64,000 nt of DNA from the NCBI RefSeq assembly GCF_030013595.1, contig NZ_CP122768.1, one strand, 5' to 3'. Source of the stretch: Escherichia coli (GTDB lineage: Bacteria > Pseudomonadota > Gammaproteobacteria > Enterobacterales > Enterobacteriaceae). Of the stretch, positions 39,001 to 42,000 are shown piece by piece. The first letter of the stretch is position 1, and every line of letters begins with the position of its first letter. Position numbers: made by a program.

Positions 39001-42000
39001 GACTGGGATCTCTGGCAGGCAGAAGCCTCTATCCGCAACAACAAGATGTGAGGGTTTCCAAAATGCAAAAAATCGACCTCGGCAACAACGAATCCCTAGT
39101 GTGTGGCGTGTTCCCCAACCAGGATGGAACGTTCACCGCCATGACTTATACCAAAAGCAAGACATTCAAAACTGAAACGGGCGCACGTCGCTGGCTTGCC
39201 AGAAATACTTGCTGATCCATTATTTGGATTAATTCAATATTCTCGCTGTAGGGGTATAGCCGAGGCCACCAAAGCCCGGAGGTGGTGAAATAAAACCGGG
39301 CGCAACACGAAGGCGCATTTCCGATATCCATAAAGAGTCGGTTTTGTCTGTTAAATTTAAATGGTGGGAGTGCTCCTCCGGTTGTAAATAACGACATTGC
39401 TGTGTGTAGTCTTGGCGGCATCAGTTTTTTCTTGAAGTTCGGCTGATGTCCGCCCTTTTTAAAGTGAATTTTGTGATGCGGTGAATGCGGCTCAGCGCAC
39501 GCGGAACAGTTAAAAAAGTGATCGGTACTCTGTATTTGTTTTATGGAGTTGGTTTCCCTGTATTCCGGCGTTAATTGTTAACTGGTTAACGTCACCTGGA
39601 GGCACCAGGCACCGCATCACAAAATTCACTTAGTAACCAAGAAGAGAATTATATGCAAGAGATAAGTTTTGAAATAACAGCAAAAGATGTACAGGTTAAG
39701 CCCGATTACAATCAAAAATTATGTATTGAAGTCAATGGCGTGAAGTTATCAGACCTGATTGATTCAGTTGAAGATAACGACGCTATTATTGAAATGGTTG
39801 GAGCCGAAGAAATAGCAGAATACTTTTCAACAGAGGGGCGTCTTCATGAGCTTCTGGAAAAATTTTCATATCAGGATATCGCTACATTTCTGGAAATTAA
39901 TGGTTATAAAGTTACCGAGGAATAAAGTAGCTCAGGTGGCGTTATGGAACGTAATCATCTAACAGCTATCAGTGCCGCACAGAGTAAATTCGCCATCGCT
40001 GTATTTTTACAGGATGAAGAAATGTTTGAGCAGGCCATTATTCAGTTTGCAATTGCGACCGGGAGTAAAATAAATGAACACTTTGTTCGCTCTTGTCATG
40101 ACCGTTTTTCTGACATCAGGCGAAACTCAGGATGTTGTTACCGGAATTTATAACTCCGAATCTGAATGCAAGGCCGCAGCTATTGAGCAAAAAGTAGCTG
40201 GTGAATGTTTCCCTGTTGAGAAATTTATCCGGCCTGTAGATGAAGAAATTCCCGCAGGCCTCACAGGAGAAAATCATGAAAATAAAATGTGGTTACCACC
40301 TTTGCAATAAAGACGTTGAAGAAAGCAAAACCATTAAAAGACCACTTCATTTCATGCGTGGAGTTATCCCAACGACGGAAATGAAAAAATATTGTAGTGA
40401 AAATTGTGCCGAAAAAGACCAGATGGCACACGAACTTTAATTAACTGACTATTCGAAACTGAATTTATGCCAGAAATGGCAGGGATTCGCTCAACCTTAA
40501 TTAAGGAGAAAAACATGATTACCAATTATGAAACCACTGTTGTAACTACCGATGACATTGTTCACGAGGTGAATCTGGAAGGAAAGCGCATTGGCTACGT
40601 AATTAAAACAGAAAATAAAGAAACCCCATTCACTGTGGTTGATATCGATGGTCCATCAGGCAACGTAAAAACACTTGATGAAGGTGTCACAAAAATGAGC
40701 CTGGTTCACATCGGAAAGAATCTGCCCGCAGAAAAAAAAGCCGGATTTCTGGCAACTCTGATCGCAATGAAATTAAACGGTGAAATCTGAAAAAAAGAAA
40801 GCCTGCACTGTGTGCAGGCCTGAGTGAAGAACCTGGGACATTTATTCATCACTCGCAGTAATTTTAATCTGAGTTGAGGTTAAAAAACAATGAGCACAAA
40901 ACCACTCTTCCTTTTACGGAAAGCGAAAAAATCATCCGGTGAGCCTGACGTCGTCCTGTGGGCAAGCGACGATTTTGAATCAACCTGTGCCACTCTGGAC
41001 TACCTGATCGTTAAGTCAGGTAAAAAACTGAGCAACTATTTTAAAGCTATTGCAACTAATTTTCCTGTCGTTAATGACCTGCCCCCTGAAGGTGAGATCG
41101 ATTTTACCTGGAGTGAACGCTATCAACTCAGCAAAGACTCCATGACATGGGAACTAAAACCGGGAGCAGCGCCAGACGACGTTCACCACCAGGATAATGC
41201 TCAAGAAACCAACGAACTGGCGGGAGGCCAGGAAGAAAACGCGCAGGCAGACGCCCACGAGGATTGCCAGGATTGCGAAGTCTCTGTAGCCACTTTGCGG
41301 TTCACACAGCGTCTTCTGCACATTTTTACGTATGCAGCCGGGGATCGGAAATACCTGCATCATGCCACCCGTGAACAACGCAAACACATTACTGCTCTTG
41401 AGATGGATCAGGAAAACAGCTATGTCCAGAATCTGCTGTTGGCCATACGCAGCATGGCAGAACCGACAACTCTGGATAATGCCGCCCTGCTCCGCCTGAC
41501 TGATGCAATTAAGGCAGTGTTCTCTATCACGAAAAAACATCAGCCCTATGAATTTAAGAATTTCATTTCAGCCTGGCTGGATACCGAACACATTGATCGC
41601 GGTCTTCTGACAAAAGAATGGCGAAAAGGAAATCGTGTTTCACGCATCACGCGCACGGCTTCCGGCGCTAATGCTGGCGGCGGAAACCTCACCGATCGCG
41701 GCGAAGGTTTCGTTCACGATCTGACGTCACTGGCGCGCGACGTAGCCACTGGCGTACTGGCTCGTTCAATGGACGTGGACATTTATAACCTTCATCCGGC
41801 ACACGCTAAACGTGTCGAGGAAATTATCGCTGAAAATAAACCACCCTTTTCTGTTTTCCGCGACAAATTCATCACCATGCCTGGTGGGCTGGATTATTCC
41901 CGCGCCATCGTGGTTGCGTCCGTAAAAGAAGCACCAATTGGGATCGAGGTTATCCCCGCACACGTCACCGAATATCTTAACAAAGTACTGACTGAAACTG

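What the first reader, a model, noticed from the sequence alone, without database searches (positions are those of the whole stretch)
39414..39631. Terminator followed immediately by a perfect 22-bp inverted repeat bracketing 126 bp, gating the recET-side early operon
Seen in sequence: a good plus-strand terminator lies at 39414-39460. One base later comes AAGTGAATTTTGTGATGCGGTG, whose exact reverse complement lies at 39610-39631, about 20 bp before the next gene. The 126-bp interior contains GTTAACTGGTTAAC and no convincing ORF. No annotated feature explains it. Possibilities: (a) a long-stem RNA element such as an antitermination or processing signal, which would be relevant because Rac-type phages have no obvious N protein; (b) a miniature inverted-repeat transposable element of ~170 bp; (c) a pair of protein-binding sites that loop the DNA. 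Established knowledge: recET in K-12 Rac are silent unless sbcA-type changes allow read-through, so a control element here is plausible.
Basis: partly seen in the sequence, partly recalled or inferred. Interest (0 to 1): 0.5.

Follow-up and report, generated by a model that had tools for sequence, protein, structure and literature searches.

The report
RNase III stem closing a phage RNA
The 22-bp inverted repeat is the closing stem of a conserved folded RNA that lies between a prophage small RNA and the next early gene; it is almost certainly a cutting site for the host enzyme RNase III, not a transposon or a DNA-binding site, so the element is real but largely explained.

Summary
In detail: there is a perfect 22-nt inverted repeat (39462-39483 / 39610-39631) one base after a terminator.

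The "terminator" is the 3' hairpin of a KilS/DicF-type prophage sRNA (39364-39460). The repeat is helix P1 of a ~170-nt plus-strand RNA domain. That domain is homologous to the kilS-kilR leader of K-12 Rac and the dicF-dicB spacer of K-12 Qin. It is distantly related to Rfam STnc100, scoring 34.6 bits, below the family's threshold of 47.

Across 24 relatives, 94% of pair positions stay paired and 23 of 40 pairs show compensatory changes. The arms differ completely between genera yet remain complementary. Non-Watson-Crick pairs are mostly G·U, which fits the sense-strand RNA only.

Two reviews summarise a 1990 paper in which RNase III cuts read-through dicBF RNA 19 nt past the DicF terminator. 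That position lies inside the homologous 5' arm.

The best reading is an RNase III processing stem that separates the sRNA, the folded core and the downstream message. The transposon, DNA-looping and antitermination readings are rejected. What the core does, and how the cut affects downstream expression, remains unknown.

The parts
39364..39460 (+). KilS/DicF-type prophage sRNA. It has a single-stranded 5' part, a terminator hairpin at 39414-39455 and a U tract at 39456-39460.
   Evidence: By eye it is nearly identical to annotated K-12 ncRNA kilS (b4833, 1418405-1418502). The 334-nt stretch spanning the sRNA and the element is 85.3% identical to K-12 Rac. Rfam DicF scores 41.1 bits, E = 3.3e-7, below the gathering score of 48. 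It folds as a hairpin.
39462..39483 (+). P1 5' arm. The inferred RNase III cut is near 39474/39475.
   Evidence: Perfect inverted repeat. 12 of 19 P1 pairs show compensatory changes. The cut position is extrapolated from the 72-nt DicF of Qin (PMC5069750, PMC9438474, and coordinates).
39486..39499 (+). P2 hairpin (UGCG / CGCA, loop GCUCAG).
   Evidence: Paired in 100% of cells across 24 sequences and nearly invariant.
39502..39567 (+). P3, a long-range 4-bp helix (39502-39505 with 39564-39567) that encloses a stretch variable in sequence and length.
   Evidence: 3 of 4 pairs show compensatory changes. The interior differs in every relative.
39507..39513 (+). 5' strand of the pseudoknot (CAGUUAA).
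   Evidence: Complementary to 39578-39584. Paired in 95.2% of cells in A1. Covaries across the wider family.
39568..39592 (+). P4 hairpin. The stem is 39568-39575 with 39585-39592. The loop UGUUAACUG (39576-39584) contains the 3' strand of the pseudoknot, UUAACUG (39578-39584).
   Evidence: 7 of 8 stem pairs show compensatory changes. The loop is nearly invariant in subfamily A.
39595..39609 (+). P5 hairpin CCUGG-AGGCA-CCAGG, the family's signature motif.
   Evidence: Invariant apart from a U-A to G-C swap in 10 of 24 sequences. The motif occurs in more than 240 fetched loci.
39610..39631 (+). P1 3' arm. The inferred RNase III cut is near 39620/39621, which would leave a leader of about 32 nt on the downstream message.
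   Evidence: The cut position is inferred from the 2-nt stagger of RNase III (established enzymology, not tested here).
39653..39925 (+). Downstream 90-aa ORF, in the position held by kilR in Rac and dicB in Qin.
   Evidence: ORF list. It matches phrog_7311, function unknown. Homology with Qin and Rac stops at the end of the 3' arm.

Best explanation
The inverted repeat is helix P1, which closes a ~170-nt folded RNA domain made of P1-P5 plus a pseudoknot. The domain is transcribed on the + strand as part of the prophage's early-left operon. It lies between the terminator of a KilS/DicF-type sRNA and the next ORF. When RNA polymerase reads through the sRNA terminator, the 22-bp P1 duplex forms, and host RNase III cuts both arms near the middle. 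That cut would do three things. It detaches a 3'-extended sRNA. It releases the pseudoknotted core with about 10 bp of P1 left on it. It gives the downstream message a new monophosphorylated 5' end about 30 nt before its start codon. Shown here: the structure, its strand, its conservation and its homology. Reported for the Qin homologue only: the RNase III cut. Inferred: the same cut in this window and the exact positions. Unknown: whether the cut raises or lowers expression of the downstream genes, and what the core does.
For: The perfect 22-bp stem folds far better than shuffles. Homologues sit in the same position in K-12 Rac (kilS-kilR) and K-12 Qin (dicF-dicB). A match is present in 4620 of 5426 complete E. 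coli genomes, median 2 places per genome. In 24 relatives, 93.9% of cells are paired against 33-40% when partners are slid. 23 of 40 pairs have compensatory changes, and 0 of 500 shuffles reach the observed values. There are 28 distinct arm haplotypes, with completely different arm sequences in the Citrobacter-type and Klebsiella-type copies, all keeping about 20-23 bp. Non-Watson-Crick pairs favour the sense strand: 46 G.U against 9 A.C in the arms once L128 and L247 are set aside, and 94 against 24 cells over the whole structure. RNase III processing of full-length dicBF RNA gives a 72-nt DicF, against 53 nt for the terminated form (PMC5069750; PMC9438474). Nineteen nt past the annotated DicF end (L002 1935) is L002 1954, inside the 5' arm at 1943-1963. 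A weak supporting point: position 1649470, inside the Qin element, has 26 reads in the rnc deletion strain and none in wild type (Gordon 2017 Table S1). None of the 50 long-P1 copies has its own terminator, whereas 95 of 206 short-P1 relatives do. This fits the long P1 being the device that gives the RNA its ends inside an operon.
Against: No cleavage data exist for this window or for Rac. The 72-nt figure reaches me only through two secondary summaries. A third paper (Ragunathan 2023) describes only an RNase III site upstream of dicF and saw no full-length transcript. The Gordon table is low-count and noisy, and the authors marked this site as 'known' rather than as independent support. RNase III antideterminant rules were not checked. 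A long helix could also serve simply to stabilise the fold. The near-invariant loops and the pseudoknot show that the domain does more than offer a duplex.
Confidence: 0.7

Rival explanations
1. It is a cis-acting leader that works without cleavage, like a riboswitch or a protein-binding leader. The folded core would sense a ligand or a phage or host protein. P1, which ends 7-32 nt before the start codon, would then set how well the often toxic downstream gene (kilR, dicB) is translated.
For: In subfamily A the element always lies just upstream of an SD-ATG: 50 instances, with 13-27 nt typical between the arm and the start. The core has a pseudoknot and invariant loops, as aptamers do. The downstream genes include division inhibitors.
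Against: The downstream sequences are unrelated, so no conserved alternative pairing or expression platform exists. A continuous 22-bp P1 is unlike a switching helix. Related copies occur in tandem arrays, next to tRNA genes, or with their own terminators and no ORF after them. RNase III cleavage is reported for Qin.
Confidence: 0.15
2. It is a miniature inverted-repeat transposable element of about 170 bp, with the 22-bp arms acting as terminal inverted repeats.
For: It has perfect terminal inverted repeats and the right size. There are many copies per genome, up to 9 places. It lies at a mosaic junction.
Against: By eye I saw no target-site duplication at either end. The arms covary between lineages rather than keeping a transposase-recognition sequence. 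Mismatches are tolerated as G.U on one strand only. All fetched copies are in phages, prophages or P1-like phage-plasmids, and subfamily A keeps a fixed orientation and position. The interior is itself a covarying multi-helix fold. The one 'empty' site found (PhiR12_3) is a different recombination joint, not a clean excision.
Confidence: 0.02
3. It acts at the DNA level. The two arms would be paired binding sites that loop the DNA, or a cruciform or single-strand hairpin signal.
For: Two identical 22-bp sites lie 126 bp apart close to the immunity region.
Against: The arm sequences are not conserved between genera, although their complementarity is. G.U outnumbers A.C, which has no meaning for duplex DNA sites. 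Four further covarying helices lie between the arms.
Confidence: 0.02
4. It is a processive antitermination RNA, like HK022 put or lambda nut, that lets polymerase reach recET.
For: It is a structured RNA in an early operon upstream of recET, in a prophage with no annotated N in the stretch examined.
Against: It lies downstream of the terminator it would have to suppress. I saw no boxA/boxB-like or two-hairpin put-like features by eye; no pattern search was run. The same element sits downstream of an annotated N gene in phiSTEC1589-Stx1c. Relatives occur in late regions, in P1-like phages and in tandem arrays.
Confidence: 0.03
5. It encodes a short leader peptide (ATG at 39486, 29 codons) whose translation opens the structure.
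For: The first 10 codons (MRLSARGTVK) are shared by the window, Qin and Rac, and several differences between them are synonymous.
Against: The ATG is destroyed in L020. Other relatives change the residues (S to C, G to D). The frame, length and stop differ between copies, and the rest of the peptide is unrelated. The only SD-like bases lie 1 nt from the ATG and inside the 22-bp helix. STnc100 proper has no ATG at this position. The variable sites coincide with loop or junction positions of the RNA fold.
Confidence: 0.03

Closest known systems
dicF-dicB intergenic region of E. coli K-12 prophage Qin (RNase III processing of dicBF RNA; Faubladier et al. 1990, as cited in PMC5069750 and PMC9438474)
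   Same: It holds the same position, directly after a DicF-type terminator. It has the same 5' arm, P2, P4, P5 and 3' arm; the blastn match over the spacer region is 80% identical (sequences). The reported RNase III cut lies within the 5' arm.
   Different: The Qin stem has 3-4 G.U pairs and about 21 bp, whereas here it is 22 perfect pairs. The P3 interior is 16 nt shorter in Qin. The downstream gene is dicB rather than the 90-aa ORF, and the upstream sRNA seed is DicF rather than KilS-type.
kilS-kilR leader of E. coli K-12 prophage Rac (KilS sRNA, Bar et al. 2021, PMC8175672)
   Same: It is the closest K-12 homologue of the whole module, sRNA plus element (85.3% identity over 334 nt). The operon order racR-ydaG-ydaF-...-recE is the same.
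   Different: The Rac P1 has a one-nucleotide bulge and two G.U pairs. kilR follows it. K-12 Rac has sieB between ydaF and kilS, which is absent here.
Rfam STnc100 (RF02076) and the related PasD sRNAs of pathogenic E. coli
   Same: It shares the signature GGUGAAU...UCACCNGGAGGCACCNGGCACC. The architecture is the same: a closing stem, a 5' hairpin, a hairpin whose loop pairs with the strand after P2, and the CCNGG hairpin. It is likewise confined to phages and prophages.
   Different: It scores 34.6 bits, below the gathering score of 47. P2 and the P4 loop differ in sequence. P1 is 20-23 bp here against 7-10 bp. It has no terminator of its own (0 of 50 against 95 of 206). It is embedded in an operon directly before an ORF.
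Classical RNase III processing stems (rRNA precursor stalks, lambda N-leader site, T7 early sites) - comparison from general knowledge
   Same: It offers about two helical turns of duplex formed by sequences that flank a folded RNA within a polycistronic phage or host transcript. Cleavage would release the enclosed RNA and create new mRNA ends.
   Different: None of these is homologous in sequence. The enclosed RNA here is a 126-nt pseudoknotted domain of unknown function.

Membership tests
Rfam STnc100 (RF02076) | Covariance-model score at or above the curated gathering score (47 bits) | tested here: not met
   34.6 bits, E = 1.7e-5, for window 39457-39656. The Qin copy scores 34.4 bits. Typical members score 48-107 bits.
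Rfam STnc100 (RF02076) | Shared core architecture and signature motifs (GGUGAAU after the 5' arm; UCACCNGGAGGCACCNGGCACC; closing stem) | tested here: met
   Model alignment over positions 1-206. The motif is at 39593-39608. The helices match in position.
Rfam STnc100 (RF02076) | Stand-alone sRNA gene with its own 3' terminator | tested here: not met
   0 of 50 subfamily-A copies have a terminator-like site within 90 nt after P5, against 95 of 206 other copies. An ORF starts 21 nt after the 3' arm.
Rfam STnc100 (RF02076) | Accumulates as a discrete stable RNA | not testable with these tools
   STnc100 copies in EHEC are expressed and one was seen on a northern blot (PMC5331693). There are no data for this subfamily.
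RNase III processing site | Continuous double-stranded RNA of about two helical turns (about 20 bp or more) | tested here: met
   22 perfect pairs here. Relatives keep 20-23 bp with G.U pairs or one bulge.
RNase III processing site | rnc-dependent cleavage within the helix | not testable with these tools
   Reported for the Qin homologue: 72-nt DicF, mapped by me into the 5' arm. Weak support comes from RNA-seq of the rnc deletion strain at 1649470.
RNase III processing site | No antideterminant base pairs in the proximal and distal boxes | not tested
   The cut position is only inferred, so the boxes cannot be placed.
KilS / DicF-type prophage sRNA (the 'terminator') | Homology to annotated kilS, and a GGCGG...CCGCC terminator hairpin followed by U's | tested here: met
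   DicF-model alignment of the hairpin.
DicF (RF00039) | Score at or above the gathering score (48 bits), and the ftsZ-pairing 5' sequence UUUCUGGUGAC | tested here: not met
   41.1 bits. The 5' part here is GCUGUGUGUAGUCUU.
MITE | Target-site duplication flanking the terminal inverted repeats | tested here: not met
   By eye, the left flank is CCCTTTTTA and the right flank is AGTAACC, with no duplication.
MITE | Terminal repeat sequence conserved among copies, with copies scattered in unrelated sites and both orientations | tested here: not met
   The arms covary. All subfamily-A copies share one orientation just before an ORF in phage early regions. Plasmid hits are mostly ~90-kb non-mobilizable replicons that I take to be P1-like phage-plasmids.
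Processive antitermination RNA (lambda nut / HK022 put) | Lies upstream of the terminators it overrides, and has boxA+boxB or two put hairpins | tested here: not met
   It lies after the sRNA terminator. It coexists with an annotated N gene upstream in a relative. I saw no boxA-like sequence by eye; no pattern search was run.
Riboswitch-like cis regulator | A conserved expression platform linking the folded core to the RBS or a terminator | tested here: not met
   Sequences after the 3' arm are unrelated among relatives. The core itself does have a pseudoknot and invariant loops.

The most novel reading that the evidence does not exclude
The core enclosed by the repeat may be the functional unit, shared by the whole STnc100/PasD superfamily. 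It would be a compact, pseudoknotted RNA with near-invariant loops that binds a conserved host or phage partner (a protein, a ligand or an RNA). Temperate phages would deliver it in two ways: as a stand-alone gene with its own terminator, often in arrays beside tRNA genes, or excised by RNase III from the early operon, as here. On this reading the long stem is only the release device, and the real discovery would be a new class of phage-borne functional RNA, for example a decoy or sensor acting early after induction.
Probability: 0.25. Interest if true: 0.75.

Novelty: new variant of a known kind. Interest (0 to 1): 0.4.

Why it matters
The element sits in most complete E. coli genomes (4620 of 5426). 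K-12 carries two copies, directly upstream of the division inhibitors kilR and dicB, yet neither copy is annotated. This work recognises it as one covarying RNA fold. It ties the 1990 observation of RNase III processing of DicF to a defined structure. It links that structure to the uncharacterised STnc100/PasD RNAs of pathogenic E. coli. It also gives concrete mutants (P1 and pseudoknot compensatory pairs) for testing how prophages time the expression of toxic early genes. It corrects a recurring annotation error, the 'DicB, incomplete' pseudogene. It does not reveal a new kind of mobile element or a regulator of recET.

Tried and rejected
- **Rfam at gathering thresholds:** nothing was found at the site. 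Only the permissive search showed the DicF and STnc100 relationships.
- **PGAP 'DicB, incomplete' call inside the 3' half:** rejected as an artefact. The frame upstream of dicB's ATG is open in Qin, so N-terminally extended DicB models match the RNA's conserved 3' half. Here that frame ends at a TAG, and an unrelated ORF follows.
- **Leader peptide starting at ATG 39486:** rejected (see rivals).
- **MITE 'empty site':** PhiR12_3 has the sRNA without the element, but a different gene (ea22) follows, so it shows nothing about insertion.
- **Transcriptome-wide RNase III maps:** no supplement is held for Altuvia 2018. Gordon 2017 gives only a low-count hit.
- **Faubladier & Bouché 1994 (PMC205167):** not held.
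- **Cis pairing of the sRNA seed with the downstream start codon:** the minimum-free-energy fold suggests it, but the helix is 10 bp with 4 G.U pairs and I could not see an equivalent pairing in Rac by eye, so I did not pursue it.
- **Second copy in the window:** none found.
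Full report
**1.
- The window has a perfect 22-nt inverted repeat, 39462-39483 and 39610-39631, with 126 nt between the arms.
- The 170-nt stretch folds at -70.5 kcal/mol. Dinucleotide shuffles average -43.4 +/- 3.5 (z = -7.6), and none of 200 folds as well.
- One base upstream lies a hairpin (39414-39455) followed by five U's.
- The 3' arm ends 21 nt before the ATG of a 90-codon ORF at 39653-39925.

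**2. The "terminator" is the 3' end of a known kind of prophage small RNA.**
- The permissive Rfam search aligns 39401-39455 to DicF (41.1 bits, E = 3.3e-7, below the gathering score of 48).
- K-12 Rac carries an annotated ncRNA, kilS (b4833), in the same operon position. By eye its sequence is almost identical to window 39364-39460.
- KilS was found by RIL-seq and confirmed by northern blot (PMC8175672).
- The gene order around it is the Rac order: an HTH repressor, a 44-aa ORF in the position of K-12 ydaG, a DUF1391 ORF (annotated ydaF), the sRNA, the element, small ORFs, then recE.

**3. The repeat has homologues in the best-studied E. coli strain.**
- The kilS-kilR spacer of Rac and the dicF-dicB spacer of Qin carry the same arms and the same internal motifs.
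- Homology between the three loci stops at the outer end of the 3' arm. After it come kilR, dicB or, here, an unrelated 90-aa ORF.
- A megablast of the element finds a match in 4620 of 5426 complete E. coli genomes. The median is 2 places per genome and the maximum is 9.
- It also occurs in lambdoid and Stx phages, directly before genes annotated Kil or DicB.
- It occurs before tciA in the P1-like phage D6. Most plasmid hits are ~90-kb non-mobilizable replicons, which I take to be P1-like phage-plasmids.

**4. It is an RNA structure on the sense strand.**
- Scanning public genomes and viral contigs for the core motif gave more than 240 loci.
- Fifty instances share the window's subtype, which I call subfamily A (GAAUGCGGCU after the 5' arm). 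They have 28 distinct arm haplotypes.
- The arms are completely different in the Citrobacter-type and Klebsiella-type copies, for example AGCAGGCTTTAAGGTGCGGTG or ACAGACCTTGCAATGCAGTG. They still pair over 20-23 bp.
- Scoring treated G.U and A.C alike. Setting aside L128 and L247, whose outer arms do not pair, the non-Watson-Crick pairs are 46 G.U against 9 A.C.
- In a 24-sequence alignment, RNAalifold predicts five helices.
- 93.9% of cells are paired, against 33-40% when partners are slid by 1-3 columns. 23 of 40 pairs have compensatory changes, and 0 of 500 shuffles reach any observed measure.
- Over the whole structure there are 94 G.U cells and 24 A.C cells.
- This pattern cannot be explained by duplex-DNA sites or by transposon ends.

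**5. The anatomy in window coordinates.**

| Helix | Coordinates |
|---|---|
| P1 | 39462-39483 with 39610-39631 |
| P2 | 39486-39489 with 39496-39499 |
| P3 | 39502-39505 with 39564-39567 (encloses a stretch variable in length and sequence) |
| P4 | 39568-39575 with 39585-39592 |
| P5 | 39595-39599 with 39605-39609 |
| Pseudoknot | 39507-39513 with 39578-39584 |

- The loop's UUAACUG (39578-39584) is the exact complement of CAGUUAA (39507-39513), just after P3's 5' strand. This gives a 7-bp pseudoknot.
- Within subfamily A the pseudoknot hardly varies (95.2% paired), so it cannot be tested there.
- Across 104 representatives of the wider family, the strand after P2 and the P4 loop of the same molecule share at least 6 contiguous Watson-Crick pairs in 57 cases (55%). 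The figure is 3.7% for loops taken from other molecules and 2.5% for shuffled loops.
- The paired sequences differ widely, for example ACTGGATA/TATCCAGT, AAGTCACA/TGTGACTT and AGACTGACA/TGTCAGTCT.
- The one STnc100 paper I searched for the word does not mention a pseudoknot.

**6. Family relationship.**
- The window element and the Qin copy match Rfam STnc100 over the full model but below threshold (34.6 and 34.4 bits against 47).
- Most other loci with the motif score 48-107 bits.
- STnc100's function is unknown. EHEC EDL933 carries 11 Rfam-annotated copies, several of them abundant and one seen on a northern blot (PMC5331693).
- A 2026 preprint links STnc100 structurally to the Hfq-associated PasD sRNAs.
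- The two architectures differ in an informative way. Of the short-P1 copies (7-10 bp), 95 of 206 have an intrinsic terminator 10-50 nt after P1. They also form tandem arrays or lie among phage tRNA genes.
- None of the 50 subfamily-A copies has a terminator. All lie 7-32 nt before an SD-ATG inside an operon, and these are the copies with the 20-23-bp P1.

**7. Mechanism.**
- Two papers summarise Faubladier et al. 1990 in the same way. [quoted passage not shown]
- Nineteen nt past the annotated DicF end (L002 1935) is L002 1954, which lies inside the Qin 5' arm at 1943-1963. If the terminated end includes the U's, the position shifts by up to 5 nt and stays inside the arm.
- A transcriptome comparison lists 1649470, inside the same element, with 26 reads in the rnc deletion strain and none in wild type. 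This is weak evidence.
- I therefore read P1 as an RNase III processing stem.
- By homology the cuts here would fall near 39474/39475 and 39620/39621. That would leave an A/U-rich leader of about 32 nt on the orf90 message and about 10 bp of P1 on the released core. These positions are inference.
- Ragunathan et al. 2023 describe only an RNase III site upstream of dicF and saw no full-length transcript. The downstream cut therefore rests on older work that I could not read.

**8. Rivals.**
- **MITE:** ruled out by the lack of any visible target duplication, the covarying arms, the strand-specific wobble, and the fixed orientation and context.
- **DNA looping:** ruled out by the same wobble and covariation evidence.
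- **Antitermination:** does not fit, because the element follows the terminator and coexists with an annotated N gene.
- **Leader peptide:** a conserved-looking start (MRLSARGTVK) is lost or altered in relatives, and its variable sites are loop positions of the fold.
- **Cleavage-independent cis-regulatory leader:** this remains possible, at about 0.15.
- The reading in which the core is a trans-acting RNA is compatible with the main explanation.

**9. Verdict.**
- The finding is real and well explained in outline.
- It is an unannotated, operon-embedded variant of a known phage RNA family.
- Its long closing stem matches a previously reported RNase III site.
- Two things remain open: what the pseudoknotted core does, and how cleavage affects kil, dicB, orf90 and the recET genes downstream.

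Noticed in passing
window 39396-39413: The single-stranded 5' part of the KilS-like sRNA (AUUGCUGUGUGUAGUCUU) is identical over 18 nt to the conserved 3'-half stretch of the core-genome sRNA RprA in the Rfam alignment. It occurs once in the window. The paper that named KilS does not mention RprA. A prophage sRNA carrying an RprA-like pairing region might share RprA targets.
   Followed up: partly
window 39944-40153 (+): A 69-aa ORF matches Pfam Lambda_Kil (PF06301, 32.1 bits, cutoff 27.6) and the PHROG 'Kil protein for bacterial septation inhibition'. It is not annotated in the identical RefSeq region. The locus may therefore carry a lambda-type Kil one gene further downstream than kilR sits in Rac.
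   Followed up: partly
window 39562-39627 (+): RefSeq/PGAP annotates a 'cell division inhibition protein DicB, incomplete' pseudogene inside the 3' half of the RNA element. It reflects an open frame upstream of dicB's ATG in Qin, not a gene remnant. The megablast hit list shows DicB named under the match in several other genomes, which may be the same artefact.
   Followed up: yes
window 39216-39363: K-12 Rac has sieB (superinfection exclusion) on the opposite strand between ydaF and kilS. Here only about 150 bp lie between them, and sieB is absent.
   Followed up: no
loci L042 (894-2010), L151, L171, L076 (3717-5512), L008, L014, L031: STnc100-like elements occur as tandem arrays: four in a row on a Pantoea plasmid, and three copies 253 nt apart in viral contigs. 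They are also interleaved with phage tRNA genes.
   Followed up: partly
loci L002, L126, L196, L246, L025, L204 and the window: sRNA seed types and downstream genes are recombined freely around the element: DicF+dicB, DicF+kilR, KilS+kilR, KilS+orf90, KilS-like+dicB, KilS-like+282-aa ORF. The element therefore marks a mosaic joint in lambdoid early operons.
   Followed up: partly
window 44617-44795, 49105-49222, 57427-57522, 51791-51860, 31891-32064, 6469-6552: Other Rfam matches above threshold are RalA antitoxin, FnrS, McaS, RNA-OUT (IS10), sok and sRNA-Xcc1. RalA fits a Rac-type prophage, and FnrS and McaS are RNAs known from the E. coli core genome.
   Followed up: no
K-12 NC_000913.3 position 1418510 (kilR-sieB spacer): Gordon 2017 Table S1 lists 41 reads in the rnc deletion strain and none in wild type, 8 nt upstream of the KilS 5' end. 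This is outside the element and may mark a second RNase III-sensitive region, like the site upstream of dicF in Qin.
   Followed up: no
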